A stretch of 64,000 nucleotides of DNA from Rhizodiscina lignyota (Eukaryota), in the NCBI GenBank assembly GCA_010015805.1, contig ML978122.1, positions 1,460,453-1,524,452 on the forward strand, in the 5' to 3' direction. A model generated the notes under the pieces. The model was given only the letters and a program-made list of their open reading frames with translations. It made no database searches and was not told the origin of the DNA. Shown piece by piece: positions 208-35,500 of this stretch (position 1 is its first letter; each line of letters begins with the position of its first letter). A program made the position numbers and the translations under genes.

Positions 208-1135
208 CTAGTGGTGGCCATCGTGATGCCCTGGAAGTGATCCGGCGCCGACGCGTTCATTCGTGCGATGCTCCTCTGCCCAGGCGAACAGGCTATCATA
301 ATCTCTGCAGATGTGGGTTCCATCCCATCCAGTCGTAGATCGCCCCGTGGGAACATCCGCGTTAGCGGCGGTCGTGTCTAAGGCCGGATCCGCCGAGCAC
401 TTGATCGCTTGTCTCAGAAATTCGGTACAATGATAGGTGTGCCAAACTTCCTGATCGGGCACCTGCGACGAATTCTCCATGGCCCTGCCGAAAGACTGCT
501 GTATCATGTACTGAACGCATGTTCTGGTCAGCCGATCCTGGACTTGGTTGTCCCGCTTCGCCACTTACCAAGCAATGAAGCTGATGGAAAACCGAGACAA
601 CGTAGATGTCCTCGGACCCATCTTTCCGGCCGGTTGGGACATTCACAAATCCTCGGCCCCCTTGCTTTGCTATCAGCTGTTTGTCACATCGTGGGGCATA
701 ACGCGATTGTCTCCTTACTAGGCATGTCTGCTTCCCATACAGCTTCCACTTCCGCTGTAATTTCAGTGACAGTTACAGCCTCAAATTTCTTGGCCACTAG
801 AGGATCTAAATGTAGCACTTCATTAGATACGTAGCTCCTTGGAATATTCAAATGGTACACTTACAGTCAGGTGCCAGGAGAAGGTTCTCAGGATTAAGGC
901 TTTGCGAAAGTGAAGGCGATGACAGTGGCAGCTGTACAGCAACTTTGATAAGAGGGAAAAGTAGAAGACCCAGGAGAATTACACAACAAGCAGTGAGAAT
1001 TCTGATTTGTCGGCAGAGCTTCAAAACAAGTCGATTCTCATCGTGTGGGAAGTCCTCAGTGGAGTCGCCGCTCACCGGGCTGTAGGATTCTTTCCACAAA
1101 TGAGAAAATGGGTTTGACCGAACAGCAGGATACAT
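208..1135 (-). CDS. UstYa-like / DUF3328 oxidase (fungal RiPP tailoring enzyme), 4 exons
   Basis: Spliced model: N-terminal TM segment (ILTACCVILLGLLLFPLI), then ...WEADMP-RGRGFVNVP...VVSVFHQLHCL-YMIQ...WHTYHCTEFLRQAIKCSADPALD...GWDGTHICRDYDSLFAWAEEHR. Two HxxHC motifs plus the LRQxxxCxAD and GWxxxHxCRD motifs are typical of DUF3328. GTAAG donors at 864, 718 and 568 on the minus strand. Confidence 0.93.
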
Positions 1136-1614
1136 TTTCAGAGACGTGACGATGAAGAAACTTGACAATGTTCAGGTATGAAAGATGCGGACTTGTTGAC
1201 AGAAAGAGAGTATCGTTTATAGAATCCTAGACAGAGCTCTGACATGTTTTTATAACGTCAAGCTCAACTCTAGGGGTATGGTAAGGAACATCCCCCTCTT
1301 AAAATTGGCCACAACTCCTCCGTCTGTGTCCCACGCGAGACCTGGCAATCACCGTTGCAAGGTATCCATACAATGATACCGGATTCACCGTCGACGTCCG
1401 ATGTATGTTGGAACCAGGGTTCACCACTCTATCTCACCGCCAACCTGTCTGAATGCTACGCATAGGCACTGCATCGAGGCACTATACCTCTTCTCGCAAG
1501 ATCATCCCACGGTCGTCCACACTGGCCGCCGTTCAATGTAATTGTACGATGGGTTGGACAATCCGTCGACTAATGGGACCCGCACCGGTATTGTTTGCCA
1601 TTCCGATTCTGATG

Positions 1615-1620
1615 TATAAA
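1615..1620 (+). promoter_or_regulatory. Probable TATA box of the repeat-peptide precursor gene
   Basis: TATAAA about 110 nt upstream of the ATG at 1730, inside the 594-bp divergent intergenic region. Confidence 0.45.
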
Positions 1621-1729
1621 GAGGTCTAGTTGTCGGCCGTTCCCATTGTGCTATCCAGCTTCGTTCAAGGAATATCTTCATCCCAGAGTGTCTCAGCAAT
1701 CGTTTCATCTCTTCTCAATATCTGCCGCA

Positions 1730-2287
1730 ATGAAGTTCTCCGGTGCCGTCGCCCTCGTGGCGCTCCTGCAAATGGCCATCGCTGCTCCCACCTCACCACT
1801 GCCGGCTGCCATTGAAGAGAAGCGACAGAGTCCCGACTTGGGTACCTACGTCTACTTCAAGCGTGAGGCTGAGGCTTCCGCTGAAGAGAAGCGCCAAAGC
1901 CCGGACCTAGGAACCTACGTCTACTTCAAGCGCGAGGCTGAGGCCGAAGAGAAACGCCAGAGCCCGGACCTTGGTACTTACGTCTACTTCAAGCGTGATG
2001 CTGAGGAGAAACGCCAGAGCCCGGACCTTGGCACTTATGTCTACTTCAAGCGTGACGCCTTGGCCGAGCTTGCGGAGAAGCGCCAGAGCCCTGATCTCGG
2101 CACCTACGTTTACTTCAAGCGTGAACCCGAGGCTGCTGCCGAAGAGAAGCGTCAGAGCCCTGACCTCGGCACCTACGTTTACTTCAAGCGTGAACCTGAG
2201 CCTACCGCTGAAGAGAAGCGTCAGAGCCCCGATCTTGGCACGTATGTCTACTTCAAGCGTGAGCCTGAAGCAGAAGAGAAGAAATAA
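1730..2287 (+). CDS. Secreted Kex2-processed repeat protein (RiPP precursor), 185 aa, 7 x core QSPDLGTYVYF
   Basis: Intronless ORF from ATG 1730. Signal peptide MKFSGAVALVALLQMAIA-AP; seven identical KR-QSPDLGTYVYF-KR units separated by acidic E/A/P spacers; divergent from a DUF3328 gene. Confidence 0.93.
   Translation: MKFSGAVALVALLQMAIAAPTSPLPAAIEEKRQSPDLGTYVYFKREAEASAEEKRQSPDLGTYVYFKREAEAEEKRQSPDLGTYVYFKRDAEEKRQSPDLGTYVYFKRDALAELAEKRQSPDLGTYVYFKREPEAAAEEKRQSPDLGTYVYFKREPEPTAEEKRQSPDLGTYVYFKREPEAEEKK
1820..2260 (+). repeat. Seven coding tandem repeats of KR-QSPDLGTYVYF-KR
   Basis: Amino-acid-identical cores with variable third codon positions (e.g. Leu TTG/CTA/CTT/CTC, Gly GGT/GGA/GGC) and variable-length spacers. 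Confidence 0.95.
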
Positions 2288-3169
2288 GGGACGGTCAGTT
2301 TCCGTAGTGACAACAGCGTTGACTTGGCAAGCTCAGTACTGATCGGTATCAGATAACACGATCTGGATCCTCAATGCGGGTCTGGCAAGGCGTACTGCCA
2401 TATCGCACGACGGCATGTGGGTTGGCCATTCTGGTTTTGGGTCTGAGAGAGAGTTGGGGAGAGGTGTCGGAGATGGAAGCCACTCCTTACGTTGGTGTTC
2501 CTGCTGTTGTAGTCATTGTTGTTGTCATCTCGAATAGGCTGCTCTAGTAGTGAATCAAGTCGCTCGCTAGAATCTGATGTGGGATTTGCCTAAGCTGTAG
2601 CCTTCTTGTCCTTAAACAGATTAATGAAGCTCCCTATTCTTTGCCTATTATCTTGATACTATTCCTGGAATCGAGTAATACTAACCTTGAGCTTGGAATC
2701 CGACTTGCTCTTGCTATTGACAAATGAACTGGGGACCTGGATCTCTTGGGGTTTGACTGCTTTCGTACGCCATGGGGGAGCCGTGGGCGAACTGTGAAAG
2801 AGCTGTGCAAGAGCCTTGGGTGAGCCACGTAGTTGCTGGGTGAGCTGGCAGGTGAGCCGATAATGACCAAAACGGGCTCCGAATATCAGAACTCAAACGG
2901 CCCAACGGGTTCCTAGTAAGCCTTCTATTAAGATACTATTGCCTTGACTGAGTGCCATTAGAGAAAACAGACAGGTTCAGGGAAGAGTTTGGTTCCGATA
3001 TCTTCCTTCTAGTTCAGCGAAAAGGGAAGCTTACTAGGTATACCTCAAGCATGACTCTTAATAGTCCTCGGTAGTCTCCTCAGCCAGAATACTTCTCTAA
3101 CAGTTGCACTTCATCAATGATCAAGAAAATAGTCAAAACACCTGCTACACTCAAAATCCGTAAAATGAA

Positions 3170-5200
3170 GAGCGAGGGCGATCCAGGAAGCCGATTGCCG
3201 TGACGAATATCCCTCCACACTCGCACATTTCCTTGTCACACCGCAGGCCCGTTTTTGCGACGTGCTTCAGATACTGCTGCATCATGTGGCATCGTACGAT
3301 GTCTACACGAGCGAATTTAGAATGTGGGCAGAGGAAGCACTTCTGGGTCGAGACCTTCCGTCGACGAGTATATGCATGAATGTTTCTTGCGATGGGGTCT
3401 CGCCCGCATTCTCATTATCATCATTATCATCGCTGGTATCGCTTTCTTCTGCGTTCCAAGCTGGCCTTCACGGCTGGAGTTGGGTCTTGATAGATGTAAA
3501 GCGCTGTAAGGTTGTATGTTCCCTGAATTCTTTATTGTGAGAGCAGCATCGCCGGTTGATGAACCTGCCTCTGATCCGTAGGATGCATCGACGATGCGAA
3601 CGCGTTCCGGGCATACGTAATAGGGAGCACGTAGCTCCTAATCTTCTTCTTTCTCAGATTCCTGTTTGGATACTTCTTCGTCTGGGATGGCCCCATCCGC
3701 AGCATTGGCGAAGGTTGCCAATCTACTTGTTTGTTTCGTCATTGGGCGTATCGCGGAAGTAGTCTACTTCCATCTTGCCCTCCTCTTCCCTTCCTAAACG
3801 TTGAATCTCCCTCGTCAATTCCTTGTGCTCTTGACAAAGCTCCAGACACTGGGACTCGCCCTTCTTCAGGGTTCCTGCCGAAGATTGAATCTGATTCTTT
3901 ATCCAATTCCTCTCCGATCTCAGCTTGATGATCTTGGGATCACGGCGAATGCGCCTTGCGTGCTGGATACACCGACTATTCATGCTGATCGGCGCCAACG
4001 GATCTCGCATACTCTTACGAGCCGCTTGTCAAGGCCCTCCTGCATCGGACTAGCCAAGGTGACCTGTTGCAGGCCACCAATAAGGTCAGACTGTAGTGTC
4101 TCTCGAATCCGTGTTCCCAGACTGACTCAAGGCTTTCATCCGTCAGGGCGACGAAACTCGCTGGTGAAAGTAAACTCTGAACGATAAAGGACTATATGAA
4201 GAAAGGGAAGCTGACTGTTTACCTTGTTTGCGGCCCAGCGTCTGTATACTGCATAGAAACTTTTTTCCCACTCGTAACCAACCCTTCGGAGGCGTGCTTC
4301 AGTGCAACATCGCTGACGTCGTAGGTCGTGGGCTTCACTGGGTCTAGTTTCCATTCTTCTGCAGTCCGTTCTATACTCCGGAGAGCATGGACCTTGAGTT
4401 TATGCTCTTTTTAATAATTGGGAGCTTGGGAAGCCGAAGGTGGGTACGGAGCTTCCAGATGAGCTCAGGGCTCAGGTTTTCGTTATTAAATGCGTGGTCT
4501 CAAAATGCCATCGCAACGACTTGTAGGGTGGGGCAGTAGGCCAGCTGGTAGTCCCAATGCAGGATATATCTTGTCATATTGGAATCGTTAGTCTCAAATA
4601 TACTCTCGGGGGAACTAATTATTACCTGTCTATGCTCTTTGCTCTCTCTTTCATATTGCAGAAATTGACTATCGCGCAGGGGATATCGGGACCATTTGAA
4701 TTTGGAAGGTAGAATAACTGAATATCCTGCCAACATACTGTGTTGGAATCGGTGTCGACGGCGATGGTCTCTGGGATATGACTTTTGAAACCTGACTCCG
4801 ACTGGTATGTTCACTGGTATGGTCGCCATTCTCTTGAAGCACGCCCGGTCGTGTGCCAGTGATGGAAGACCACGGTTGAACAGTTGATTGTTGGACAAAG
4901 CAATTGTTGAATCGGAAACAAGTGGAGTGCTTCCAGAGGAAACGCTGGTGAAGGGCCTGCTCATCCGGCCGAGGATAATTTTTTAATGCTCCGAGCCAAG
5001 GGTGTTCCGGGTGCCGGTTAGGAATCTTAGGATCCCTCCAATTATTCCCCACTAAGACGATGATGTCTTTGTCGGTTGGACATTCGTGGGCTTTGCATTG
5101 ACCTTCGACCAACGCTCGTTGGGTCAGCTCACAGCCGTTGATTTGCTGCCCATTTGCGGTCGTCAGTCTTGCGGTAGTGAACAAAGTCATACTTCTTGCA
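3170..5200 (-). pseudogene. Degraded DUF3435 tyrosine-recombinase-like gene (Starship captain family); boundaries approximate
   Basis: Collinear fragments across frames on the minus strand: SSITGTRPGVL (~4837-4870), DYQLAYCPTLQVVAMAF*DHAF (~4490-4555), YRRWAANKVN (~4218-4246), LSQSG...FERHY/QSDLIG.LQQVTL.SPMQEGL (~4030-4130), RDPLAP...RRDPKIIKLRSER...DYFRDTP (3735-4007), EED*ELRAPYYVCPERVRIVD (~3585-3650), and a degenerate C-terminal Zn-finger-like segment (~3200-3300). Multiple frameshifts and stops. Recognised from remembered family consensus, not from an HMM search. Confidence 0.72.
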
Positions 5201-6111
5201 TCCGACCTGATAGATACTGGCTCGCTTGAACAATCTGTTCGGTGCTACAAGATTTCTAGGTGTAATACTGCAGCATAGTGCACATAGAGTCATACTGAGC
5301 GCTGGGCCTCTGAGCGCGCTAATGTCTTTATCATAAAGGTAAGGATCGGGAATGCGGTTACATCAAACCATATTGTGCTCACAAGAAGGACGTTAAGATG
5401 CTTGAAAGTTATGCCACTGGCTTTGCCAGTGGGACTTGTTGTAATGCACCGCTTACTGCACTCTGCATTGCAGTTGAATGGACTTTCTCTATCGCTATCC
5501 GTGTCGGAGTATCCACAGATATAGATTGGCTAATCCACACTGAGTTCGACGATAAGGTTTTGCGCACAGATGCCATAGGACTAGCAGGTGACTTTACGAA
5601 CAGGCAGCCTATCGTGGTTTTTGTAGAGAGAATGCTTTACGGGATATATTCCAGTCCGAAGGGGCTAACTAGATCAGCGTCATAAAATCCAAGAGAAACT
5701 CCACGATGATGACCTTTCAAAAACGCTAGTCCGTAAGCCATCTACTTCATATCAGTAATAATGATTGTATTCCGTACCCCTTAAATATCATGTATTGGGC
5801 GACACGGGGCCCAACGGGACTGCAATCGATGCGCGACGAGCAGGCAGTCGAAACTGAGTCTTCGACATACAAACCTGTATTCAATCACGCTTTCATGCAC
5901 CCGTACACTTCGTCTCGAATGTGCACTTGGCCTAGAAATTGAAAACTTTCATTAGTCGGAGCGGATGCAATTACTTAGTGTGTAGAAAGTTGTTCGCGAC
6001 CTTCAGGCTTGGCACCACCTTGCTCCTTCTAAACTCCGAATCTTCGATTCTCGCGGGGCCTCTTAACATCCCCAAGTCTATCTTGTCAAGCATGCCAGAG
6101 CGTAGTCAAGG

Positions 6112-7513
6112 ATGAAGAGAACGCTTCTTTTATGCTTCATACACGGTTTTAAGGTCCGACCCTTCCCTTGAACCGCGCCGCACATTGCTTAACTATTTGG
6201 ACAGGGCGGCGATGATACCTTCGAACGCTTCCCGGAAGACTTGCGCGCGCTTGTAAGCCATGCGATGCCTGATGTCACTGTCTATGCGATCCAATACCCG
6301 AAATTTCAGACTCGCGGGGATCTGAGGGACTGCGTGAGGCGCTTCAAAGAATGGTACATTACTATTTGGTGGACACTACGATGCGCCGATGCTGATGTCT
6401 TGGGCAATGGCAGGTTGCAGAATAAAGTCATAGACCTCGAGGTCGCGAATCAACAGCCTTCACCTACGGTCGATCCTTCGGTGCGCACGATATTGGTGGG
6501 ACATTCTATGGGGTACGTCGCTAGATTCCATGTTGTGGGTGACGTGGCACTGAACACTGCGTACCAGAGGCATTGTTGCAGCAGAGGCAGTGCTCTCTAT
6601 TTGCCAGGACCAGCCGATTAGTTCCTCCGGCGAGCTCTCATCCGATTCCGCTGGCTTCATGTTCCCTTATATTCAGGGCATTCTTGCATTCGACACTCCA
6701 TACCTTGGAATCGCTCCTGGAGTTGTGGCTCATGGTGCAGAGGGCCATTTGAACAATGCATCGGCCGCCTATCAAGCAATTAACAATGTCGCCACATCAT
6801 TCGGATGGGGAGCAAAGAGCGACCCGGGCCCGGCTGCGTCCGTCGAGGCGAGCAAGTTGCTTCCGCCTGCAAGCAGCAACAGCACTGCCGATGCCGCTGC
6901 TACGCCTGCTTGGCAGCGATGGGGACGCTACGCAATGTTTGCGGGTGCAGCAGGTGCAGTCGCCGCAGGTGGTGCTGCAGCTTACATGAAGAGAGATTCA
7001 CTCTCGGTGGGCTGGAAATGGGTGGGCTCACACCTCGAGTTTGTTGGATGTCTTGCACGTGGCGCAGAGATGGAGAAGCGTCTGCAGTCCATAATCGATA
7101 TGGAGAGGGAGCACGACTTCGGGTTCCTTGACATCTATACCGCTCTCGGACGAGCTGTGGAAGGAAAGAGTAGCTGGAGCAGCGGTGTGCTCGGAGAGCA
7201 GCGTACATTCTGCACATTGCCAAAGAGCGGGTCGCGGCAGAAATACTTTCTCAAGGCTACGAACGACGCTGCGGAAGATGAGACGTGGGCTCACACCGGG
7301 ATGTTCACGCCGCGTAGCAATCCTGGATATCATGCCATGGCCGAGGCTGCCAGAGAGATTATCGGCCGATGGACACAGGGCAAGTGGTATGCAGATGCCA
7401 CGATGGACGAGACGAAATTACGATGCGGGGACGATGCTGAAATCGTAGACGGACCCGGAGAGGTTGAAGAACTGGACACCGAATTTGATACCCACGGCGA
7501 CTTGGGAGCTTGA
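6112..7513 (+). CDS. DUF676-like alpha/beta hydrolase (putative serine esterase), 4 exons
   Basis: MKRTLLLCFIHGFK-GGDDTFERFP..., nucleophile elbow ILVGHSMG-GIVAA, and LAFDTPYLG motif; short GT-AG introns restore the frame. Confidence 0.85.
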
Positions 7514-8424: not shown

Positions 8425-9436
8425 CTACAAGTTCCTCTGGAAGAATGCATCAAGCACTTGATACGCTTCTCTAGCACGATTTGCGAGTTTGGGGTCAGCC
8501 CAATTGGACCTTGCCGACGCAAATCCATGGTGAACATCAAGCTGTAAATTCGATCAGCCAGCTCAGTCTTACATACACGAAAGGATGACCAGGCTTACAA
8601 AGTCCTGCCGGACAGATGCGTCCGCGATGGGCTTGGTCTGGATCTTGCCGTAGAAGGCATCCATTGCTTTTGGATCCTCGCCTTGACTGGGGAGCAATGC
8701 GATGGGAACATCGACATTGTCCGCGTCTTCCGGCTGAAAGTTGGTGGGGTGGATGAAGCCCATGCACTTGAAAAGCTTCAGGTGCGCGCCTTGGACGAGC
8801 TTTTTCGCACCGAAACAGAATCCATAGGCCTAGAATGCTTAAGCGACGTCGCCTTGCGTACACGAAGGGCGGAATATTTACGCCAATTGATGCAGCACCG
8901 AGCCGTCTGGCGTTCTCCACCGTTGCGATCAAGCCTGGCTGCACCTTTTCCCAGGATCCAACTTCCTGGACCCACGCGTTTAGCGCAGGCCGCCCTGCCT
9001 TGGGCGGTACTATGCAGCGTCAATGGCCGAAAACGTGTATAGAGAGTGAGACATGTCACATACTGTCATTGATGTCCCATCCCTTCCCACGGAAGAAGTC
9101 TGGAATAACGATCCGGTATCCGCGCAGTTGGGCCAAGTAGTCAGCGCCTTGTAGGGTGTTCGAATGGAGACCGAAAATATCTGGGTCCAGTTAGGTACTC
9201 CGTACACTCTCCGCAATTGAAACGGATAGACGGGTCGCTGTAGACGAGCCGCGGTATCCCTCCATACCATGGATAGCTACCAGCGCTTGCTTAGCATCGG
9301 GGTCGCCTGTTTCGTACACTTCGAGGTCATCTTGCCCTTCAATCTGGAGAGTGAACCGCTTTCCAACTGGGACGTAATCAGACTTGAACGGTGGCAGCGT
9401 GCAGCACTGTTCGTTGACTTCCGACTGTTCCGCCAT
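8425..9436 (-). CDS. Dienelactone hydrolase family protein, multi-exon
   Basis: N-terminal CCTLPP, IVIPDFFRG, nucleophile motif YGFCFGAK, IHP, and C-terminal VHHGFASARSNW...AYQVLDAFFQRNL*. Confidence 0.85.
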
Positions 9437-9912
9437 TTTCCCAGGAAGACGCAGAGGTGAGTTAGGGCTAGAGGAGGCTTAAAATTTAGGTTCGATCATC
9501 TTGAAGCTATCGAACGTCGGTTGTGAGATTTTCAAGCTCATTCGTCACTATCTCAAATTCATCACGTGCGGTGGTGGGGATGATGGAATTTCCAACTCGG
9601 ATCCATGCATCCAGAAACACGCGAGCGACGGTGGGATGATCCCAGATTTGAGGTTTCTGCGGAGATCTGCTTTTCTCACAGAGGCAGACATCGGCAAAAT
9701 GCTCCCAGAAAACGAGTTGATTCGGCGCCTGCGGAATCCGTCCGACACGTCTTAGTCGATAGAAGACTCACGGAAGGACAGTACCTGGCGATGCACACCT
9801 TCGCCCCTCCATGTATATCTTTTTAAAAGACGAGGCAAAGCGTTTCGTTTTTTGACCCATCGCTTGATTATTCAGAATTTGAACGCACGTGTATTCAATC
9901 TACAGAATAGAG

Positions 9913-11574
9913 ATGGTATGTACCAAGTCGCGATGAGCCATAACGACGTCCTGACTGACCTTTAATCAGCATATTATTGTCGTTGGTTGCGGCCTCGCCG
10001 GCCTCACGGCTGCGATTGCGCTGGCGCGCGCAGGCCACAAGGTCGAAATCGTCGAAGCAGCACCGCAGATCGCCTACGTCGGGGCAGGTCAGTTCCATCC
10101 CACGGATCACCATAGTTTGCGCTTCGTCTAAAGAGTCCCTAGGCATCCAAGTCTCGCCAAACTCATCGAGAGTCTTGCGGAAGTTGGGCGTCGACAAGTA
10201 CATCGAGAAGTACTGCACAGAGCCTGTGGATCTCCGTATGATGCGATGGGAGAATGGCAAGAAGCTTGTCGAATGTCCACTCAAGAAGCCCTCCCATGAC
10301 GAGTACGGATCGCCTTACTGGTGAGTTCGATATGGCTCCTCATCGTTACGGACCGTAGCTTACCCTTGGCCAGGCACGTTCACCGCGCCGATTTCCACCG
10401 CGGTCTACTCGAGTGCGCTCTGGAGCTGGGAATTGTAACGCACCTCGATAACCGCATCGTCGACATTGACGCTGAGGCTCCATCATTGACTAGCCATACT
10501 GGCAGGCGCTTCACTGCAGACCTTATCGTGGCTTCTGACGGTTGGTAGACACCCGCGATGTTCTGAGAGAGCTAGTACTTATGACTTTTACAGGACTGAA
10601 TTCGAAATGCCGTGAGGTTGTCGTCGGCCACGCTAGTCCTCCGATTCCAACCGGCCAGATGGTGTACCGAGTTACGATTCCAGCGCGGAAGCTTAAGGGC
10701 ATCCCTGGGCTCGAGGAGATGATCACAACTCCGAGAAACAACCATTGGATTGGTCCATACGGAACAATCCTGAGTTACCTGCTTGAAGGTATCAACGAGA
10801 CGCTAGTGAACTTGGTCATGACGTACGTCTGCTCTTCTATGATGACAAGGTCTCTTACCGCATACTGACGAGACGAAGGATCGATGTAAACGGCAGAATG
10901 CCAGACGGTGTCAACCAAAGACTCAGTTCTGCAGACGCTGCACGTGCTGCATTCAAGGGATGGGACCCTCGGGTGGACCAGATGCTGGAGCACGCCGAGC
11001 ATGTTCTCGAATGGAGGGTAAGATTCGCCTTGTCGCGGGTTCCTCATGGATCTCGAAGCTAACATGAGCGCAGTTGTTCACCCATCACGAGATCCCATCG
11101 TGGGCGCATTCGTCGAAGAAGCTCATTATCATCGGCGACGCCTGCCACGCCATGACCCCCTATCTCGCACAAGGCGCCGCTATGGGTATCGAAGACGCAG
11201 CGATCTTGGGCGGTCTCTTGGAGAAGTATCCTACTATGGATACGATCGGAAAGGTCATCACGCTCTACGAAAGGCTTCGCATCAAGCGTACGGCCCGCGT
11301 TGCCGAGGCCTCCATCGACTCCCGCTACTTTACGCAGATGCCCGACGGCCCGAAACAGGAGGAGCGCGACGCCTGGCTCGTCGAGCACCCGGGCATTTGG
11401 AAGGGCCACATCAACATCCGCAGCCGCAAAGAGTTCCTCGACTGGCTGTTCGGATATGATGCGTACAAAGCCCTTAACGAGGCGATTCAGGCGGAAGAAG
11501 GTGGTGACTCGGCGGGTAAGGGAACTTCCATGGGCGTACACTCGCACGTCGCTGAGATCATCTCTGAAGCGTAA
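9913..11574 (+). CDS. FAD-dependent monooxygenase (salicylate hydroxylase-like, group A flavoprotein)
   Basis: ATG-only first exon, then HIIVVGCGLAGL (GxGxxG), GIQVSPNSSRVL, HRADF, ADLIVASDG (DG motif), IGDACHAMTPYLAQGAAMGIEDAA (GD motif). Confidence 0.92.
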
Positions 11575-12786
11575 TGCTCCCCGCCTTCACCAAACCTTCA
11601 AGACGACAGTGGGATTTCGCATGCTTTGTACGATGTGCTTTTTTGGACTAAAATACCCAGAGTGAGCATCTGATATAGATTCATCATTCTATGAGGAGTA
11701 TGGTAGAACGGAATGATTCACGTTACTTGTTACGGCTGCCTTTGGAGCAATCCTTCAGTCTCGTCAGCACATTCCGGATCTGATGCGAAGGATCGGCGCG
11801 GCAGTTGATTTTGAGCGTGCGACGACTACAGCGTTTCGTCTTCTCTAATTTCTAATTTGTTTCCTCTTTTATGCTGGAAATTAGGGAATTCTGAAAATGG
11901 AAGTTGGCTGAAACGCGCCTCATATGAACTGGCCAGTAACAATAGAATGCGCGTCCGAAGCAATTGTGGCTCGTGAGTGAGTCAGTGAACGACTGCAGGT
12001 CGGCCCCAGCGGGGAAATGTTCAGATCCTTCAGTTGCATTGCCAAGCTGATAAAGCGTGCAAGTGCGATTTGGGCGAAAAGGCTCGATGCGTGTTCCAGA
12101 ACGCTCGGTGGGCTCTGAGACACAACGCCACATTCGCTATGCTAGCGTTCCCCTTCACGCCGTCGGCTTCTTCCGCGGCATATTGGGCGTCGTGATAGAC
12201 GTTGGATTTTGACTCATGACGGGCTGTCTCTCGTCAGACGGTGAGACAGCAGGGAGCACTGCTTTCCAGTAGATTCCTTCGACTTGGCGGTATTGCTGGC
12301 TTTGTTTCGATGCCTCCCACCAAGTTCGGATGCGCGAGGAGGAAACCGGCAACAAGTCTGCATAACCAAAGAGGGTAAGAAAGCTATCAGAGGTACCGTA
12401 GAGGATCTGGAGCATCCTGTCTAGAGCTTGCGAGCTGAGTATTAGGTTTTCGCCGTTCCCGATTGAACACACACACATCAGCTACCTCCGCCACCTCAGC
12501 TTGCTCTTGGCGCCACCGTCTGCCATCACGTGTAGGGCCGTTGCAAAGGATATCCATGGGACTGGAACTGATATTTACTCGATCTGAGTGCAACTATACA
12601 AGGATGGCACTGCCTTCCATCGCCAACGGGAGAAACTGTCGTGGCATGACTGAAGCCTACTAATACAACGCCAACGCTTTAAATAATAATAAATAGTCAA
12701 TACATCCGATGCAGAAAGGATAATTCCGAAGATCCAAAACTACAAGGAATGTCATGAACTCGTACCAGGTCGTGCCGCGTGCGGAA

Positions 12787-14632
12787 TTATATGTACTGAT
12801 GGAAAGACGGCTCGCCAAGACGCCGTCGCCACTTCTCGCCCCAGATCATTAGGGAGAGGATGGGGAACCAAAATACTAGTAGAATGAGTGCAAAAGTGGT
12901 CCAGGCCCAGTCGAATCCGATGGCTTCCCAGGTGACCACGTTGAAAAAGCCCATGACGAAAGAGAGACCGCGTGAGAGATTCATGAGGACAGCGCTCTCT
13001 GGCGTCTGAGGGCGGTAACAATCGGAGACGTAAGCGTAAAGACACGTGGACGCGATTTGGAGACCAAGCACGCCTGTCATCTAGTTAGTAGACAGTCTAG
13101 GGTGAAGTAGTAGAAGTACGTACCAACAGCTAAGCCAACCAAGGGAGGCACAAATGCAGTGCGGTGCTCAATGCACACTCCAAAAATAATCATGCCTGCC
13201 ACCATGAAACAGATGGCCGCGGTGGTCAGATACAGACGGTGTTCTGGTTTCCGAACCCCGTCGTGCTTCTTCGCTAGCCGCGTCATGAGGACGTCCGAGA
13301 GTTTGCCGGCCGTACACTCGCCAATCAAGGTGCCAATGATCAGTGGGATACCAGTGCACAGGCCAATGGCTCCGCTCTTGAAGCCATAGAACTTCGTGTA
13401 GATATTGGCCATGCTGATTGCGGGCAGAATGTTAATGAAAGTCCAGCACCACGTATAGAACCAGAAGGGGAATGCAATCGACGGGTACTTCAGCATGTAG
13501 AATGAGGTGAAGAAGTCGCGGGGTTTCAACTTCCGTTGCGGAATAAGGTTGCCGCGCAGGTTGAACAGCATCTCCCAGTACGTTCGTTCGTGCGTTCGCT
13601 GCGAGAGAAATTCCGGGCCTCGAGAAAATAGAGTCTCTGGGAAAGCGAAGAGCGCAATGCTGAAAGACAGTGCTGTAATGATGGCCGGCATCCAGAAGTC
13701 CCATTGCCAACCCAAATTTTGGCCGAGGAAACCACCGACTAAAAAAATTGTTAGGTTGTGTTGAATGTGGCCGAATGACTCGTGTACATACTAATAACTG
13801 CAATATGCGCGCCGTTGGTGACGAAGATGGTGTATACACCGCTCTTTTCTCCACGCTCATGCATGAAGAACATGTCTATTCCATGGTTAGCTTTTTGCCA
13901 AAGCAAGCCAGAACTTCTCAAACGCATACCATTCAAGCACGTAGTTCCAACGGACATCATCCCGCCCATTCCAATACCATTGATAGCACGCGTGCCCAAC
14001 AGCTGGCTGAACGTCTTGGAGTTCGCAGAGCCGATTTGTCCCACAATTGCGAATATCTGTGACAGTAGCGTAATTGGTCGCCGGCCGTATACGTTCGTCA
14101 GAGGTGTCCAAATGAACGGGGAGACGCCGCCGAGGATAATCGACGTCGTTGTGGAATATGTGACAATCTCTACGGGGCGGTGGAAAGCTTTGCCCAGCAG
14201 CACCAAGCTCGGGTTTGGCACCGCGGCATTGAAAGGGCCCAGGAACGCCATGAAACCGACCTGGATGAGAACACTCCATTTGAGCCATCTTGGCCAGTTC
14301 TGTGATCAATTTTCGTCAGTATGCCATTAACATTTTATTTTTTGGTGGGCTGTTGAAAGACGGAGGAAAAATCAAGCTGAATGATGTGCTCGTTCTGAAC
14401 GCGCAAATCTTTGCTCTACACGTACCAAGGGGTCATCTTTGAATCTGCTGGGCTGGGGCTTCAACGGAATGCCATAGGGGTCGAGTTTGAGGTCTCCGTC
14501 GTGGGCGTGGAGCTTGGAATCGGAGTCGTTGGCCTCCCAACCGCCCTTTTCATTGTCGGAGTACTTCGTCATGACCTCATGTCGTTCAGAGCCAGTGGAG
14601 CTCAATGGCGACTTTGGAATGTAGGTCGCCAT
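12787..14632 (-). CDS. Major facilitator superfamily transporter, multi-exon
   Basis: IPLKPQPSRFKDDPL-NWPRW N-terminus, NVYGRRPI (MFS motif A-like), DMFFMHERG, AFPETLF, GVRKPEHRL, YVSDCYRP; about 12 hydrophobic segments. Confidence 0.92.
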
Positions 14633-15518
14633 GGGATTGCGACAGCGATCCAGTGGAGAGGATGCGTAGGTTCGAGCGAGCGAGCGCGAGGCAGGGTGTC
14701 AGCACGTTGATTAAGGTTTGCTGGCCACGACGCTGACGGGGAGTTCTGAGGGCGTGCGAGCACAGCAATGCGAGGCGCTCGCCTCCTACCTAGCGTGCCA
14801 CAAATCTCTCGCTCCTTCCCCGCAAACCGAATGGCGGGATCAAGGTCACATCCTCGCAGCATGAACGCAGCGCCCTTGCCTGCTCCCCTGTTTCGACGCC
14901 CAAGAGCGTCCTCTGTCATGGCATTGAAGGCTGGGCGACGCACGAGCAGCACGACCGGTCCCGGCAGTTAGCTTGCTCGCTGCAATGCTCACTCCTCGCC
15001 AACTGCTCGGGGCGCGCTGATTCGCCGAGGCCGGGGAGTTAGCTGCACGAGTCGTGCAGCGGCAGCGTGCCGTATCAGTCCATTCAGGAGGAGGGTGGCA
15101 GATGCGGCGCCGCTTGCATGCTTGCGTCACCCCGGCTGCCACTCGTCGCGCGCATTCACACCTCCCCCTCTGGCACGTCTCTGCGGCCGTCCGAACCTCT
15201 CCGCCTTTCGCCTTAGCCGTGAATGGCCTGCTGAGCGGCGCCCGGCAACAGGAAGCTGATGAAGTGCCCGAGCGGCGAGGGGTTTACGCATTGCTCGACT
15301 CGTCCGCTCTGGTCACGCTGCTGCGAGTAGTAAGCTGCCCTCGCACGCGCGGTTAAGTATTAGAGGAAGTCAGCGACCGAACCCTTTCTCGCACTTCTCC
15401 ACGCTGCGGATGTAGCCATCCCAATGTCAACCACTGCGATTGTGGAGAAGACCGCCCGAGCCTAGGCGCGCAGGAACGTGCCACAGTGCCGCTTTCCGCT
15501 GAACCCGCTACACCCGCA

Positions 15519-17990
15519 ATGCCTGAGAAAATCGGCGACCGGCGGGACAGGCGGAGGGTACCAGACGGTATGTCAATTTCATATCGCATTCGATGACTCC
15601 AAGGCCCGAGTGGTCCCCCGGAGTTGATTGGTGTGTCGTCGTTGACGTGTAGAGTTGCAGAGCGAAGACGGAGAGCCTTAGCGAGCTGCGATGGCTGCAA
15701 AGGGCGACGAGTGAAGTGTCAGAGGTCGGAGTCGGAGGAAGCATGCGTGAGTTGCGTGAAGGCGGGTATTGTTTGCCAAACCACTCTTCCACGGAAGACT
15801 CGCATCTATGGCAGCGTCGAGTCGTTGAGCATTCGATATCGCGCCCTCGATGCGCTGGTGAAAGGCCTCTTTGCCGACCAAGATACCGCCGACACTAAGG
15901 TGTTGTTCCGCATCGCGCAAGAACGGAATATTTCTATGCCAGATGCAAACGATACGTCGGCCGAGCAGGACCTATTCCAGAACACCTCTGGGCCGAGTGT
16001 GAAGTCCGACTACGACAGCGACCTGGACCTACCAGACATCTTCCTTCCGGTGACCCAGGCCGACAATCCATTCGCAAGTCGCCAACCCAAGCTCGTGGAC
16101 GAAAGACTGATTCCCACCCCCCATGGAGTCTCACACTATGTCGGGCCATCTAGCTCCTTCAAGTTCGCGGCAACCATCCGCAACATGGTCGGCCAGTGCA
16201 GCATGCTGCAGCAGGATGACCATCAGTTACGGCGGAATACTCACGCCTTGCGCGCAGACTTTGCCAACATGAAGATAAGCAAAGTCATAGAACCACGTGA
16301 ACCGGATGACTCAGGCAATGATACCGCCAGCGTTGCTGGTACGGATGTTGCCACGAGTACGTCGCGGACAACGTCTCCATCGAACACCTTCAACGATCCC
16401 CACATGCAGACCATGGAGAGCGCATTTTCACTCCTGCCTCCAAGGAACGTGGCAGACGCATTGGTTGCTGGGTTCTTCGATCGTGTCCACGCCGACTTTC
16501 CTCTGTTCCACAGGAGTACCTTTCAGCAACGATATGAGCTGTCCTGGGAAGCTGCATCGGAATCGACTCAGAAGGCAGACCTTGCATGGATGTGTTGTCT
16601 CTTTATGGTTTTTGTTCTAGGAGCTCAGGCGCTCGAGGAGCACGACGTCGAGCAATCTTCACAGCTGCAGAAGCGCTATCTCGCTCTGACACGTGCCCGG
16701 CTTCATAAGTTGGTCACAACGTCTAGTCTGCAGAATGTCCAAGCTCTGGCACTTCTAATGCTCTACGAGCATAACTCCGGAGAGCGGAATACTGCATGGA
16801 TGCTGGTTGGCTGTGCCGCAAGAATGGCCATATGTCTTGGCCTGCACAGAGATAACACTGCTACGTCCTTTGACTCCATTGAGCGAAATATTCGACGCCG
16901 TGTGTGGTGGACCTTGTACATGTTTGAGCATGAGCTCTCTGTTGTACTCGGTCGACCGTCTGGTATTGACGACGCAGAAGTATATGTTGGATTACCTGAT
17001 GAAACCATTATCGAGCCAGCTGGATGTCCGGATATCCTGAAGTCCTCAATTCAGTTGACCCAACTGCAAATCAAGATGCGGGCGACGCTCTATCCTCTTC
17101 CACGGCAGCAGGAGATAGTTCTAACCGCCGGACACACCCATGCTACGTCAACTATGCTGAGAACACTGGATACTTGGTTTGCAAATATGCCAGCTCATTT
17201 ACGGCCCGAGCACAAGTCGTTATTACCTACCCATCAGAGGGCAATTCTCTTACTTCACGTCCGTTATCAGTACACGAAGACGGTAGCGACACGGCCATAC
17301 ATACTGCTGAAAGCAAATAACGACATCAACGCTCTGGCAGGCAGAAGTCCTCGGCATTATGACCAGGAGAACGAAGCAAGAGTTCTAGCCGAAACCTGCT
17401 GCGCTTGCGCGCACGAAACGATCAAGTGTCTTCTTATGCTTGGTGCAGCAGGCCTTTTGAACGGCACCAGCTGGCTGGACACGTACTTTGCCTACCACGC
17501 AATACTCGTCATTTGTCTTGACTTCCTTGCAAGGCCACGTGAACTCCCGGACACGCCCGAGGATGCAGCCCGTAAACAGTCAGTTGTACAGATGTGCACG
17601 TTCATCCGGCAAACCAGACTTGCATCGACTTATCATATTCTTGGTCAAGTCTCTGTACAGTTCGCGCGCATTGTCGGCATCCTCGACCACTCGGTTCCTG
17701 GGGAAGAGGGTGTCGGTGCCAGTGCTGGTGGCCGAGACATCGTTGCTGGCGCTCCTCACCACCTGCCACACGGACAACCTCAACTCGCTGCTGCTGTACC
17801 GGTAGCCGGTATGGCGGCTCATCACGTGGGGAATATGTACGCTACACCGACGCACGAGACGTTCAACACGCCTGGTGCAATGTGGGATTTCTTTGATCTG
17901 GCAAATCCGGAACAGGCCGGCTATGGGATGAACTTGGCTGAGTTCCCGCAAGCCGGAACCTTTGGGCAAGGCATGAATCCGGGTTACTAA
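15519..17990 (+). CDS. Zn(II)2Cys6 fungal transcription factor with Fungal_trans middle homology domain
   Basis: Exon 1 MPEKIGDRRDRRRVPD, one intron, then ASCDGCKGRRVKCQRSESEEACVSCVKAGIVC; YVGPSSS, FFDRVHADFPLFH, AICLGLHR, RRRVWWTLY, LGRPSGI. Confidence 0.92.
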
Positions 17991-23900: not shown

Positions 23901-23942
23901 CTTCACCTTTTGTATCTATTCGTTTCCTTTCTATCTTCGCCT

Positions 23943-26847: not shown

Positions 26848-27372
26848 TGAAGTTATGATTGTCTCTTTTCGGAAGGGGCTTTGCCTCTATCCCGCTTTTC
26901 AGCGACCTTCGCAGTACACATCATCTGGGAGAATATGAACTTCTTTGCGGCGTTTTGGTGGAGAAACACCAAGGCGAGAACAGGATGGGAGGTCTTCTGA
27001 GGCGATTTTTTATTCATTTTGCTCCCGGCGTTTGTCGGCGTCCTAATGGCAAATATGCCTTTTATACCATACAAGAACGGTAAGGGTGGACGGTTGCAGC
27101 ATGAAACATTTCGCATCGCGTGGAGGGAGGAAATTGAGTGGACGAAACTCGGACCTACGGAGTAGTCGTAACTCCGAGGTCACATGACGTGATTGCAAAC
27201 GGGAATTAAGTGTAGCACTTTAACTTTGAAAGTCAGCTGCAAAAATGGACATACATGAGCTGACGCTCTAAATATCGAGATCGAGATCAAATTTACCCTA
27301 TGACTCGACTATTGCTCTATTTATGCACATTAGATGTCATTGGCTTAGCAGTGAAGCAGTCGAAGGGTATAT

Positions 27373-28799: not shown

Positions 28800-29210
28800 G
28801 ACGAAATCTCAGTGGCGAGGATTTAGAAGAAAGAAGCTTCAAAAGGGAATAAGGGTCTAACGGTGCACCCCAGATTATGTATATCAAGCTAACTCGAGCC
28901 AGAATGCCATCATCGTTTGCATCACCAGATCCATTTCTCTTGCATTCTCGATCGATTATCGATCGAGATTCAAGAATGGACCGAAGGCCTTGGCCTTTTC
29001 GGCGGTGGACCATTATGACGCTGGTTCAGACAATTTCAGGGTCGCGCAAGCTCTACAGTCCCACTGGAAGCGCGTCATAGCCCTCACGACAGGCTTTGCC
29101 ACCTCTTATACTCTCTAGCTCGAGGCAGTCTAGGCCAGTCTTTGTCTCTACATTGGCCTCCTCTGTGGAGTTGAGGCTGACGATGTTGAAATCCCCGAAT
29201 ATTTTTGCCT

Positions 29211-29222
29211 TTTCGGCCCCGA
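29211..29222 (+). promoter_or_regulatory. TTTCGG-CC-CCGA candidate Zn2Cys6 site in the chorismate synthase / prephenate dehydratase divergent promoter
   Basis: Inverted CGG triplets with a 2-bp spacer; the same pattern occurs three times in the DAHP synthase / NRPS-like promoter. Confidence 0.5.
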
Positions 29223-29431
29223 CAGGGGTGACATATGATGCGCAGACCCTGAGAGGTTTCGCCATGTGCGTTACGAAAGAGGAAAGTCCTTTCACGAATA
29301 TCCTCTTCTCAAACAGTTAAATATTCAGACCCTGGAGACCCTTTGGAAGTCATTGCCCCAAGACTTGAATATTAGACGTTCAAAAAGCCTCCTAACATAA
29401 ACACAAACACACACACAAACACACACACAAA

Positions 29432-33922: not shown

Positions 33923-35251
<1,329 letters not shown>

Positions 35252-35500
35252 CTTGAGTGAAAGGGATGTTGATGATATCTCTGGTATGTCGGGTTTTTAT
35301 CAAATCTTTGGCGTCACGTTCTCAAATGATCCTGAAGTCTGCCTCTCGACGTTTTGGGCTTCTCGAAGGATCCGCTGCTTTTCATATTGGTGATTTTCCC
35401 TTCGGGACTTACAGGCCAGCTCAAGAGCCGCTAAATTTGCCCGAGCACTATACTGAGACAGTATCTCGGCGAGGTATCGTGTTGTTCTCCGACCCGTGAC

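What the first reader, a model, noticed from the sequence alone, without database searches (positions are those of the whole stretch)
208..2287. Candidate new dikaritin-type fungal RiPP: DUF3328 oxidase divergently paired with a 7x QSPDLGTYVYF precursor
Seen: a signal peptide plus seven identical 11-mer cores, each flanked by KR, head-to-head (594 bp apart) with a gene carrying two HxxHC motifs. Established: Kex2-processed repeat precursors next to UstYa/DUF3328 enzymes define ustiloxin, phomopsin and asperipin-2a type RiPPs, which are cyclised through Tyr ether bonds. This core does not match the ones I know (YAIG/YVIG, YVIPID, FYYTGY). Inference: the T-Y-V-Y-F tail supplies Tyr residues for oxidative crosslinking, and the N-terminal Gln exposed by Kex2 could become pyroglutamate. 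More cluster genes may lie left of base 1.
Basis: partly seen in the sequence, partly recalled or inferred. Interest (0 to 1): 0.88.

Follow-up and report, generated by a model that had tools for sequence, protein, structure and literature searches.

The report
Fungal repeat-peptide gene with UstYa oxidase
A wood fungus carries a small gene encoding seven identical copies of an 11-residue tyrosine-rich peptide right next to a copper-type UstYa oxidase, a conserved two-gene unit that most likely makes a so far undescribed modified peptide of the ustiloxin/asperipin kind.

Summary
Window 1730-2287 (+) encodes a 185-aa secreted precursor with seven identical QSPDLGTYVYF units, each between KR sites. 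At least 19 substitutions among the copies are all synonymous. Head-to-head, 594 bp away, lies a four-exon UstYa/DUF3328 gene (1135..208, -; 250 aa; PF11807; HQLHC and HTYHC). It is identical to an annotated Rhizodiscina lignyota protein.

The same divergent pair occurs on a soil-metagenome contig with the identical 11-mer. Related precursors occur in Thozetella and in unnamed records. All 20 of 20 cores in five precursors fit Q-x-P-[DE]-x-G-x-Y-x-Y-[F/P].

The oxidase belongs to a four-member clade (support 100/100, long stem) spanning three ascomycete classes.

No tyrosinase, methyltransferase or second UstYa lies in the 62 kb to the right. The left flank could not be read.

No paper in the searchable library holds these cores.

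Best reading: a minimal, asperipin-like, UstYa-dependent RiPP cassette that acts on the invariant Tyr8/Tyr10. The chemistry is untested. It is a new member of a known kind and of moderate interest.

The parts
208..1135 (-). UstYa/DUF3328 oxidase gene, 4 exons (1135..865, 805..719, 660..569, 510..208), 250 aa = P0004
   Evidence: The spliced translation is identical to P0004, named 'hypothetical protein NA57DRAFT_71899 [Rhizodiscina lignyota]'. Pfam PF11807 on exon 4: 49.8 bits, E 5.4e-13. Exon 3: 19.3 bits.
938..1000 (-). Single transmembrane helix of the oxidase (about residues 46-66), after a cytosolic N-terminal stretch
   Evidence: Best 19-residue Kyte-Doolittle windows start at residues 46-49, mean 2.5-2.6. 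The same holds in the three orthologs. This matches the topology described for CctR (PMC12435403, section 3 part 1).
569..583 (-). First HxxHC motif (HQLHC, residues 145-149), the last codons of exon 3 but one
   Evidence: H145, H148 and C149 are invariant in 26 UstYa sequences.
424..438 (-). Second HxxHC motif (HTYHC, residues 174-178) in exon 4
   Evidence: H177 and C178 are invariant and H174 nearly invariant in 26 sequences.
211..249 (-). C-terminal His-rich tail (GAGSLPGHHDGHH), specific to the four-member ortholog clade
   Evidence: Alignment A2: the tail is present in P0004, P0005, P0016 and P0017 and absent in the four outgroup UstYa proteins aligned.
1136..1729 (.). 594-bp divergent intergenic region (shared promoter space). 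A TATAAAG lies at 1615-1621, about 110 bp upstream of the precursor ATG
   Evidence: No conserved block against the equivalent region of L001.
1730..2287 (+). Precursor gene, single exon, 185 aa (P0001): signal-like N-terminus, 7 x QSPDLGTYVYF between KR sites, variable acidic spacers
1730..1783 (+). Putative signal peptide (residues 1-18, A-I-A before the cut)
   Evidence: Read from the sequence. Hydrophobic stretch at residues 1-19. A16, A19 and P20 are invariant in five family members. No signal-peptide predictor was available.
1826..2254 (+). Array of seven identical 33-nt core units (1826-1858, 1895-1927, 1958-1990, 2015-2047, 2084-2116, 2153-2185, 2222-2254)
   Evidence: the copies differ only at synonymous sites.

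Best explanation
This is a two-gene cassette for a ribosomally made, post-translationally modified peptide (RiPP) of the UstYa-dependent, Kex2-repeat class, in Rhizodiscina lignyota (Dothideomycetes).

Shown:
- The precursor has a secretion-type N-terminus and seven identical 11-mers bounded by KR.
- The neighbour is a membrane-anchored UstYa/DUF3328 protein with the HxxHC(x)24HxxHC signature.
- The pair and the core pattern are conserved in other fungi.

Inferred:
1. The precursor enters the ER/Golgi, where kexin cuts after each KR and a carboxypeptidase removes the trailing K and R. This frees QSPDLGTYVYF. In two relatives the last copy ends exactly at F followed by the stop codon.
2. The lumenal domain of the oxidase acts as a disulfide-linked homodimer with a binuclear copper site, as shown for CctR. 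It oxidises the peptide at the invariant Tyr8-x-Tyr10.
3. The most likely reaction is an asperipin-like ether macrocycle between a Tyr phenol oxygen and the beta-carbon of the residue two positions away.
4. The invariant N-terminal Gln either cyclises to pyroglutamate or is itself a linking partner, as the N-terminal residue is in epichloecyclins.
5. The product is secreted.

Whether the full 11-mer or a trimmed C-terminal piece is the end product is open.
For: (1) Enzyme family. PF11807 on exon 4: 49.8 bits against a cut-off of 25. Both HxxHC motifs and the Cys188/Cys218 pair are invariant in 26 UstYa sequences. There is one strong transmembrane helix.

(2) Homodimer model of P0004. ipSAE 0.87, best of 3 controls 0.00. 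The calibration mark was reached by 21 of 30 proteins solved as pairs of one chain and by 0 of 23 solved as single chains (microbes). On eukaryotes it was reached by 17 of 29 pairs, but by only 1 of the 7 with no older solved relative, and by 0 of 30 single chains. The runs agree in at least 82% of contacts and the partner's pLDDT is at least 73. The interface covers the transmembrane helix (36-58), both HxxHC helices, and C218 against C188 of the other chain. That is the layout reported for CctR (PMC12435403: abstract and section 3 part 1).

(3) Selection on the peptide. At least 19 substitutions among the seven KR-core-KR units, and all are synonymous.

(4) Conserved pairing. Metagenome contig L001 (1409 bp) has the precursor at 899-1105 (+) and UstYa exon 1 on the minus strand starting near 397. 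The orientation is the same, about 500 bp apart, with the same intron-1 phase.

(5) Identical core in a distant relative. L001's oxidase exon 1 is only 46% identical to the window's, yet the 11-mer is identical.

(6) Family. All 20 of 20 cores in five precursors fit R|Q-x-P-[DE]-x-G-x-Y-x-Y-[F/P]: the window, L001/P0006, Thozetella P0002, and the unnamed P0003 and P0014.

(7) Co-occurrence. The Thozetella precursor P0002 and UstYa ortholog P0017 are both listed on a contig of 247,591 bases.

(8) Distinct enzyme clade. The orthologs score 284-322 bits and the next hit 96 bits. The clade has 100/100 support on a stem of 2.66 changes per site.

(9) Precedent. A single UstYa homolog (AprY) with a repeat precursor makes the bicyclic asperipin-2a (passages of PMC6514808).
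Against: No product, transcript or protein data were available.

Direct adjacency was seen in only 2 loci (the window and L001). For Thozetella only an equal contig length is known. No precursor was found for Xylogone or for P0016. The contexts of P0003 and P0012-15 could not be fetched.

DUF3328 enzymes also hydroxylate, halogenate and isomerise (PMC12435403), so a cross-link is not assured.

No tyrosinase, methyltransferase, S41 peptidase or second UstYa lies in window 2288-64000. The nearest transporter (MFS, 12.8-14.3 kb) is separated from the pair by unrelated-looking genes.

In L001 the first core is flanked by ER and KK rather than KR, so processing may not be strictly kexin-type.

The dimer result is a model's confidence and not a measurement. 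On eukaryotes the calibration was weak for proteins without solved relatives.
Confidence: 0.75

Rival explanations
1. The 11-mer between KR sites is not the final product. The invariant N-terminal part (Q-x-P-[DE]-x-G) is a recognition sequence for the oxidase and is trimmed afterwards. A short cyclic C-terminal peptide is left (around Y-V-Y-F), as in ustiloxin, where 13-14-residue Kex2 fragments are cut down to a tetrapeptide. This is a variant of the best explanation and not exclusive of it.
For: Ustiloxin units released by Kex2 are longer than the YAIG core, and the flanks are removed by unknown proteases (passages of PMC6514808). Epichloecyclin units carry a follower peptide (passages of PMC10540207). 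Q1, P3 and G6 are invariant although they are far from the Tyr pair. In the P0012-15 subfamily the unit extends past the second Tyr with P-D-D.
Against: The whole 11-mer, including its variable positions, is identical between the window and L001 even though the enzymes have diverged. No peptidase gene was seen in the window. In two relatives the last copy ends exactly at F, which fixes the C-terminus but says nothing about the N-terminus.
Confidence: 0.25
2. The oxidase modifies the peptide without forming a ring, for example by beta-hydroxylation, halogenation or desaturation of a side chain.
For: DUF3328 members catalyse hydroxylation, halogenation, macrocyclisation and isomerisation (PMC12435403: abstract and section 3 part 1).
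Against: All DUF3328 enzymes paired with Kex2-repeat precursors in the passages read are tied to cyclisation through Tyr: ustiloxin, phomopsin, asperipin-2a and epichloecyclins. Here two Tyr at i and i+2 are invariant.
Confidence: 0.15
3. The precursor gives unmodified linear secreted peptides (a pheromone-like or other Kex2-repeat-protein product), and the oxidase next door works on something else.
For: The build is that of yeast alpha-factor and of the many fungal Kex2-processed repeat proteins. The nearest ESM-Atlas feature clusters include an MF_alpha cluster at 0.85, which is below 0.9 and so a lead only. The spacers contain EA/EP/DA dipeptides typical of such precursors.
Against: The head-to-head pairing is kept in a distant relative. 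The oxidase clade and the precursor family co-occur. No Pfam MF_alpha match at E up to 1. No other substrate-type gene lies beside the oxidase in the window.
Confidence: 0.08

Closest known systems
Asperipin-2a cluster of Aspergillus flavus (aprA precursor, aprY UstYa homolog, aprT, aprR)
   Same: A secreted precursor with many KR-flanked copies of a Tyr-rich core, plus a single UstYa-family oxidase and no tyrosinase. The oxidase alone makes Tyr-O to beta-carbon ether rings (passages of PMC6514808; PMC9233826).
   Different: The core here is an 11-mer unrelated to FYYTGY. No isoflavone-reductase gene was found, and the only transporter is 10.5 kb away. The oxidase sits in its own long-stemmed clade with a His-rich tail. 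No Aspergillus flavus protein was among the 27 hits at E up to 1e-10.
Ustiloxins and phomopsins (dikaritins in the strict sense)
   Same: A signal peptide, repeated cores cut by Kex2, UstYa/DUF3328 oxidases, and a Tyr linked to the residue two positions on (Y-A-I, Y-V-I against Y-V-Y here).
   Different: Those clusters carry a tyrosinase, a methyltransferase, two or more DUF3328 genes, and often an S41 peptidase and a regulator (passages of PMC6514808 and PMC12048977). None of these was found in the window's 62 kb to the right. The partner residue here is Tyr, not Ile.
Epichloecyclins (gigA/gigB/gigC/kexB of Epichloe festucae)
   Same: A multi-core precursor plus one DUF3328 protein needed for cyclisation through a conserved Tyr. 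The N-terminal residue of the core takes part in the link (passages of PMC10540207), which offers a second reading of the invariant Gln1.
   Different: The gigA units are 27-mers with a follower peptide. That cluster also has a SET methyltransferase and its own kexin, and neither is present here.
CctR, cyclochlorotine hydroxylase (DUF3328 reference enzyme)
   Same: A cytosolic N-terminus, one transmembrane helix, a lumenal helical domain with HxxHC(x)nHxxHC, and an inter-chain Cys pair. A homodimer is predicted here too.
   Different: CctR hydroxylates a non-ribosomal cyclic peptide. Here the neighbouring gene is a ribosomal repeat precursor.
Yeast alpha-factor and fungal Kex2-processed repeat proteins (KEPs; PMC7329392)
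   Same: A signal peptide, identical short peptides between KR sites, and acidic spacers.
   Different: No MF_alpha Pfam match. The core strings and the three genus names are absent from the three supplement files of the KEP survey held as text. A conserved UstYa partner is present.

Membership tests
UstYa / DUF3328 (Pfam PF11807) | Match to PF11807 above the gathering score | tested here: met
   Exon 4 alone: 49.8 bits against 25, E 5.4e-13. Exon 3: 19.3 bits. PF11807 is precomputed for P0004.
UstYa / DUF3328 (Pfam PF11807) | HxxHC(x)nHxxHC motif (PMC12435403) | tested here: met
   HQLHC 145-149 and HTYHC 174-178, n = 24. Invariant or nearly invariant in 26 sequences.
UstYa / DUF3328 (Pfam PF11807) | Single N-terminal transmembrane helix with a lumenal C-terminal domain | tested here: met
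   Kyte-Doolittle mean of 2.6 over 19 residues from residue 46-49, in all four orthologs. The topology itself is inferred.
UstYa / DUF3328 (Pfam PF11807) | [quoted passage not shown] | tested here: met
   In silico only. ipSAE 0.87, best of 3 controls 0.00. Mark reached by 21 of 30 solved same-chain pairs and 0 of 23 single chains (microbes). On eukaryotes 17 of 29, but only 1 of 7 without an older solved relative. Contacts agree in at least 82%, pLDDT at least 73. C218 contacts C188 of the other chain.
UstYa / DUF3328 (Pfam PF11807) | Binuclear copper, O2-dependent catalysis | not testable with these tools
   Needs purified protein. Copper was not among the ligands offered.
Kex2-processed repeat precursor (KEP) | N-terminal signal peptide | tested here: met
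   Judged by hydropathy and an A-x-A site only. No dedicated predictor was available.
Kex2-processed repeat precursor (KEP) | Three or more repeats separated by KR | tested here: met
   Seven identical cores, 14 KR sites.
Dikaritins as first defined (passage of PMC12048977 quoting Ding et al.) | Tyrosinase gene in the cluster | tested here: not met
   None among the Pfam hits of the 90 ORFs of 110 aa or more (47 + 43 of the 138 such ORFs listed) scanned across 2.3-64 kb. The left flank was not seen.
Dikaritins as first defined (passage of PMC12048977 quoting Ding et al.) | Methyltransferase gene in the cluster | tested here: not met
   None found. The left flank was not seen.
Dikaritins as first defined (passage of PMC12048977 quoting Ding et al.) | Multiple DUF3328 genes | tested here: not met
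   A profile of 8 UstYa sequences run against all 1619 six-frame ORFs of the window hits only the four exons of this one gene.
Dikaritins as first defined (passage of PMC12048977 quoting Ding et al.) | Repeat precursor with leader and core/recognition motifs | tested here: met
Asperipin-2a type | Repeat precursor plus one UstYa homolog, no tyrosinase | tested here: met
Asperipin-2a type | Adjacent transporter and isoflavone-reductase genes | tested here: not met
   An MFS gene lies only at 12.8-14.3 kb, beyond three other genes. No reductase of that type was found.
Asperipin-2a type | Core FYYTGY and a bicyclic ether product | tested here: not met
   The core is QSPDLGTYVYF. The product is not testable here.
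Alpha-factor type mating pheromone precursor | Pfam MF_alpha / MF_alpha_N match | tested here: not met
   No such hit at E up to 1. The Atlas feature score of 0.85 to an MF_alpha cluster is a lead only.

The most novel reading that the evidence does not exclude
The cassette is an old two-gene unit. The enzyme tree follows the order Dothideomycetes, then Leotiomycetes plus Sordariomycetes. Its 11-mer is held letter-for-letter identical in fungi whose maturase has drifted to 46% identity in exon 1. That degree of constraint fits a peptide that must fit a conserved receptor or target, that is, a modified signalling peptide rather than a lineage-specific toxin. The peptide could be made with a link type not yet described for UstYa enzymes, such as a Tyr8-Tyr10 bridge or a Gln1-to-Tyr head-to-side-chain ring, by a clade that carries its own His-rich, possibly metal-loading tail.
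Probability: 0.2. Interest if true: 0.7.

Novelty: new member of a known kind. Interest (0 to 1): 0.45.

Why it matters
UstYa/DUF3328 enzymes were only recently shown to be binuclear copper oxidases, and very few have a known peptide substrate. This is a clean two-gene pair: one oxidase, one precursor, and an invariant Y-x-Y. It has relatives in three fungal classes and natural core variants (V/I/F at position 9, F/P at position 11). That makes it a compact system for asking how these enzymes choose and link side chains. It may also yield a new cyclic peptide scaffold. The letter-for-letter identity of the core across distant fungi suggests a conserved biological target worth finding.

Tried and rejected
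- **Left flank.** No whole genome is held, so what lies left of base 1 was not seen. Laying the one public run showed a 16,552-base contig that runs about 14.4 kb beyond base 1, but its letters are not given.
- **Expression.** No RNA holder was listed. The only run (X1) consists of DNA contigs.
- **Copy number.** X1's contigs match the window with 0 differences but break inside the array (2096-2194). They do not independently confirm seven copies.
- **Promoter.** Aligning the 594-bp intergenic region with that of L001 gave no conserved block.
- **Structures.** A profile of 8 UstYa sequences found no solved chain at E up to 1.
- **Earlier findings of this scan.** None on this genome. The word search returned only unrelated bacterial and archaeal repeat peptides.
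- **Papers.** The Ding et al. 2016 paper (PMC4822579) is not held, so its list of predicted dikaritin cores could not be checked. Nagano et al. 2016 and Ye et al. 2019 were seen only as references.
- **My first gene model.** It used an intron-2 acceptor 9 nt too early (253 aa). It was dropped for the annotated model, which the Xylogone ortholog supports.
- **Pfam hits of the precursor.** MAP1B_neuraxin, Cyc-maltodext_C and the others have 0 qualifying stretches and are repeat artefacts.
- **phmmer hits.** Of the phmmer hits P0007-P0011 and P0013, the three I read (P0007, P0011, P0013) are unrelated repeat proteins. P0008-P0010 were not inspected.
- **Atlas neighbours.** All score under 0.9, so they are leads only.
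- **Shikimate genes.** I considered that the genes at 27-35 kb might feed this Tyr/Phe-rich peptide. I rejected this because they flank an NRPS-like gene 25-34 kb away.
- **Horizontal transfer.** I considered transfer via the DUF3435 relic. The enzyme tree fits the class-level species order, so transfer is not needed to explain the distribution.
Full report
**What is in the sequence**

On the + strand, ATG 1730 to stop 2285-2287 is one uninterrupted frame of 185 codons (P0001). It starts with a hydrophobic, signal-like stretch (MKFSGAVALVALLQMAIA|AP). It then carries seven identical units QSPDLGTYVYF, each with KR before and after, separated by acidic spacers that differ in length and sequence (EAEASAEE, EAEAEE, DAEE, DALAELAE, EPEAAAEE, EPEPTAEE, and the tail EPEAEEKK). 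Tandem Repeats Finder reports period 69, 6.9 copies, score 427.

The seven 45-nt KR-core-KR stretches differ at 13 nucleotide columns. These need at least 19 substitutions, and every one is synonymous. With 21% of possible single changes being synonymous, the chance of that is about 2e-13. The peptide sequence itself is therefore under strong purifying selection while the spacers drift.

On the minus strand, 594 bp from the precursor's ATG, starts a gene with exons 1135..865, 805..719, 660..569 and 510..208 (introns 59, 58 and 58 nt, all GT..AG). Its translation is identical to a database protein of 250 aa, P0004, named 'hypothetical protein NA57DRAFT_71899 [Rhizodiscina lignyota]' and 'Oxidase ustYa' by UniRef. 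My own first model used an acceptor 9 nt upstream. The annotated one is supported by the Xylogone ortholog.

Exon 4 alone matches Pfam PF11807 (UstYa) at 49.8 bits against a cut-off of 25. The protein has one strong transmembrane helix (residues about 46-66), HQLHC at 145-149 and HTYHC at 174-178.

**Annotation status of the precursor**

The exact 185-aa sequence is not in the 15-billion-protein collection that does hold P0004. Neither sequence search returned a self-hit. The ESM Atlas, however, holds it letter for letter. Some gene caller has therefore predicted it, and 'unannotated' would be too strong.

**Relatives of the precursor**

Two searches found a small family:
- P0002 from Thozetella sp. 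PMI_491, with 4 x QSPDDGQYIYF; the protein ends at the last F.
- P0003 (unnamed), with QFPEMGFYVYF plus 3 x QYPEMGYYVYF.
- P0006 (unnamed), with 2 x QSPDLGTYVYF, the same 11-mer as the window.
- P0012, P0014 and P0015 (unnamed), with 2-3 x QAPD[N/D]GAYFYP followed by DDKKR.

In an alignment of five members the invariant core positions are Q1, P3, G6, Y8 and Y10. All 20 of 20 cores fit R|Q-x-P-[DE]-x-G-x-Y-x-Y-[F/P]. Of the remaining phmmer hits (P0007-P0011, P0013), the three I read (P0007, P0011, P0013) are unrelated repeat proteins; P0008-P0010 I did not read.

**Is the pairing conserved?**

A scan of metagenome contigs with the family alignment returned one locus, L001 (1409 bp). It holds the P0006 precursor at 899-1105 (+). 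On the opposite strand, starting near 397, lies the first exon of a UstYa ortholog, followed by an intron in the same phase as in the window and the start of exon 2. This is the same head-to-head layout, about 500 bp apart.

That exon is 46% identical to the window's and 56% identical to Xylogone's. The organism is thus not a close relative of R. lignyota, yet the 11-mer is identical, encoded with different codons.

In Thozetella the precursor P0002 and the oxidase ortholog P0017 are both listed on a contig of 247,591 bases. That fits linkage but does not show adjacency. For Xylogone and for P0016 I found the oxidase only. For P0003 and P0012-15 I found the precursor only. The tool that would fetch those contigs is closed.

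**The oxidase clade**

With P0004 as query, 27 proteins scored at E up to 1e-10. Three are clear orthologs: Xylogone sp. PMI_703 (322 bits, 59%), an unnamed metagenome protein P0016 (318 bits, 59%) and Thozetella sp. PMI_491 (284 bits, 56%). The next hit drops to 96 bits and 30%.

A maximum-likelihood tree was built from 26 of the 27 hits; P0038, a 174-aa fragment without a Pfam call, was left out. The four orthologs form one clade with 100/100 support on a stem of 2.66 changes per site. The internal order is (Rhizodiscina, (Xylogone, (P0016, Thozetella))).

That order fits the class tree: Dothideomycetes outside Leotiomycetes plus Sordariomycetes. Vertical descent with many losses is enough to explain it. 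The tree tool warns that long branches meet near this clade, so its position among other UstYa proteins is unsure.

The four share a C-terminal tail, GAGxLxGHH(D/V)xxH, that the four outgroup sequences in alignment A2 lack.

**How the enzyme probably works**

A 2025 study of CctR defines DUF3328 as membrane-anchored, dioxygen- and electron-dependent, binuclear copper enzymes (PMC12435403; I read the abstract and part 1 of 2 of section 3, not the second part). [quoted passage not shown]

P0004 has each sequence feature. A homodimer prediction of P0004 scored ipSAE 0.87, with the best of 3 controls at 0.00. The calibration counts are:
- Microbes: mark reached by 21 of 30 proteins solved as pairs of one chain, and by 0 of 23 solved as single chains.
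- Eukaryotes: reached by 17 of 29 pairs, but by only 1 of the 7 with no older solved relative, and by 0 of 30 single chains.

The runs agree in at least 82% of contacts and the pLDDT is at least 73. My alignment was not used. The interface includes residues 36-58, both HxxHC helices, and C218 against C188 of the other chain. These two cysteines are invariant in 26 sequences. This supports 'built like CctR'. It is a model's confidence, not a measurement.

**How the cassette probably works**

Shown: the gene pair, the family assignments, selection on the core, conservation of the pairing and of five core positions.

Inferred from what is established for ustiloxin, asperipin-2a and epichloecyclins (passages read in PMC6514808, PMC9233826 and PMC10540207):
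1. The precursor is secreted into the ER/Golgi and cut after KR by kexin.
2. The trailing basic residues are trimmed. In L001 and Thozetella the last copy ends at F and then the stop codon, which marks F11 as the natural C-terminus.
3. The lumenal oxidase acts on the invariant Tyr8-x-Tyr10.

There is no tyrosinase here, so the asperipin-2a mode is my first choice: a Tyr phenol oxygen linked to a beta-carbon, made by a single UstYa homolog. I put it at about 0.4 within the 0.75 I give the cassette as a whole.

The invariant Gln1 would readily become pyroglutamate once exposed. Alternatively it could be a linking partner, as the N-terminal residue is in epichloecyclins.

The family also hydroxylates and halogenates, so a non-cyclising change remains possible. 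Ustiloxin and epichloecyclin units are trimmed after Kex2, so the final product may be shorter than 11 residues. Against heavy trimming, all 11 positions are identical between the window and L001.

**Cluster extent**

A UstYa profile run against all 1619 six-frame ORFs of the window hits only this gene's four exons. No other KR-rich repeat ORF exists.

I scanned 90 of the 138 listed ORFs of 110 aa or more in 2.3-64 kb with Pfam, plus 34 further ORFs, most of them shorter. None is a tyrosinase, methyltransferase, S41 peptidase or P450.

To the right come, in order:
- about 4 kb without an intact gene, which holds a DUF3435 fragment;
- an alpha/beta-hydrolase-like gene (6.2-7.5 kb; weak Pfam only);
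- an unassigned gene (8.5-9.5 kb);
- an FAD monooxygenase (10-11.6 kb);
- an MFS transporter (12.8-14.3 kb);
- a fungal transcription factor (15.6-18 kb).

I cannot tell whether the transporter or the regulator serve the peptide. The left flank is unseen.

**Comparison with what is known**

The locus works like the asperipin-2a type and is a member of the broad UstYa-plus-Kex2-repeat-precursor class. It fails three of the four features tested from the original 'dikaritin' gene set (tyrosinase, methyltransferase, several DUF3328 genes).

Literature checks:
- Two full-text searches for twelve substrings of the family's cores found no relevant paper. One search returned 0 papers. One search returned 3 papers, all for the 5-letter string 'QSPDL' in unrelated plant or human work.
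- The three supplement files of the KEP survey held as text contain none of YVYF, YIYF, YFYP or the three genus names.
- 'Rhizodiscina' together with 'RiPP' gave three papers (two listed, neither on this locus by title and abstract).

These searches cover only Creative-Commons PubMed Central papers and bioRxiv. The predicted-core lists of Ding et al. 2016 (not held) and Nagano et al. 2016 (not read) could still contain the pattern.

**Verdict**

This is a real, conserved, two-gene RiPP-type cassette with a core family that I could not find described. It is a new member of a well-populated known kind, and its chemistry is untested. It is a good and easily testable genome-mining lead, but it would not surprise a specialist. 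Interest 0.45.

Noticed in passing
window 23580-38567: A second, unrelated secondary-metabolite cluster. It holds an NRPS-like A-T-TE enzyme (36129-38567 +; AMP-binding, PP-binding, Thioesterase), a chorismate synthase (27376-28808 -), a prephenate dehydratase (29724-30608 +), a DAHP synthase (34220-35116 -) and a Zn2Cys6 regulator (23580-26844 +). Prephenate dehydratase makes phenylpyruvate. From recall, enzymes of this A-T-TE type condense aryl-pyruvates, so this looks like an aryl-pyruvate-derived pathway with its own shikimate supply genes.
   Followed up: partly
window 3726-4028 (-), within 2300-6190: A 101-aa ORF matches Pfam DUF3435 (27.7 bits against a cut-off of 25.8; profile positions 267-358 of 418). 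It lies in a roughly 4-kb stretch right after the precursor that has no intact gene. From recall, DUF3435 marks tyrosine-recombinase mobile elements of fungi, so this is probably a decayed element fragment next to the peptide cassette.
   Followed up: partly
window 211-249 (-); P0005, P0016, P0017 C-termini: The four orthologous oxidases end in a His-rich tail (GAGxLxGHHDxHH-like) that is absent from the four other UstYa proteins aligned in A2. In a copper enzyme such a tail could help load or hold metal. This was not tested.
   Followed up: no
L001 899-1105: The metagenome relative has only two cores. The first is flanked by ER and KK instead of KR. The second ends directly at the stop codon. 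Processing there may not be purely kexin-type, or only one copy may be released.
   Followed up: no
window 8537-18000: A group of genes that looks catabolic rather than peptide-related: an unassigned gene at 8.5-9.5 kb (no Pfam hit; by eye it resembles a dienelactone hydrolase, unverified), an FAD_binding_3 monooxygenase (about 9959-11574 +), an MFS transporter (12787-14305 -) and a Fungal_trans regulator (15597-17987 +).
   Followed up: partly
window 2096-2194: An independent contig set of the one public DNA run breaks inside the repeat array. A 32-letter piece there has about double depth (280 against about 150), as expected for near-identical copies 5 and 6.
   Followed up: yes
window 1730-2287: The exact precursor sequence is absent from the 15-billion-protein collection that contains the neighbouring oxidase, but it is present letter for letter in the ESM Atlas.
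   Followed up: partly
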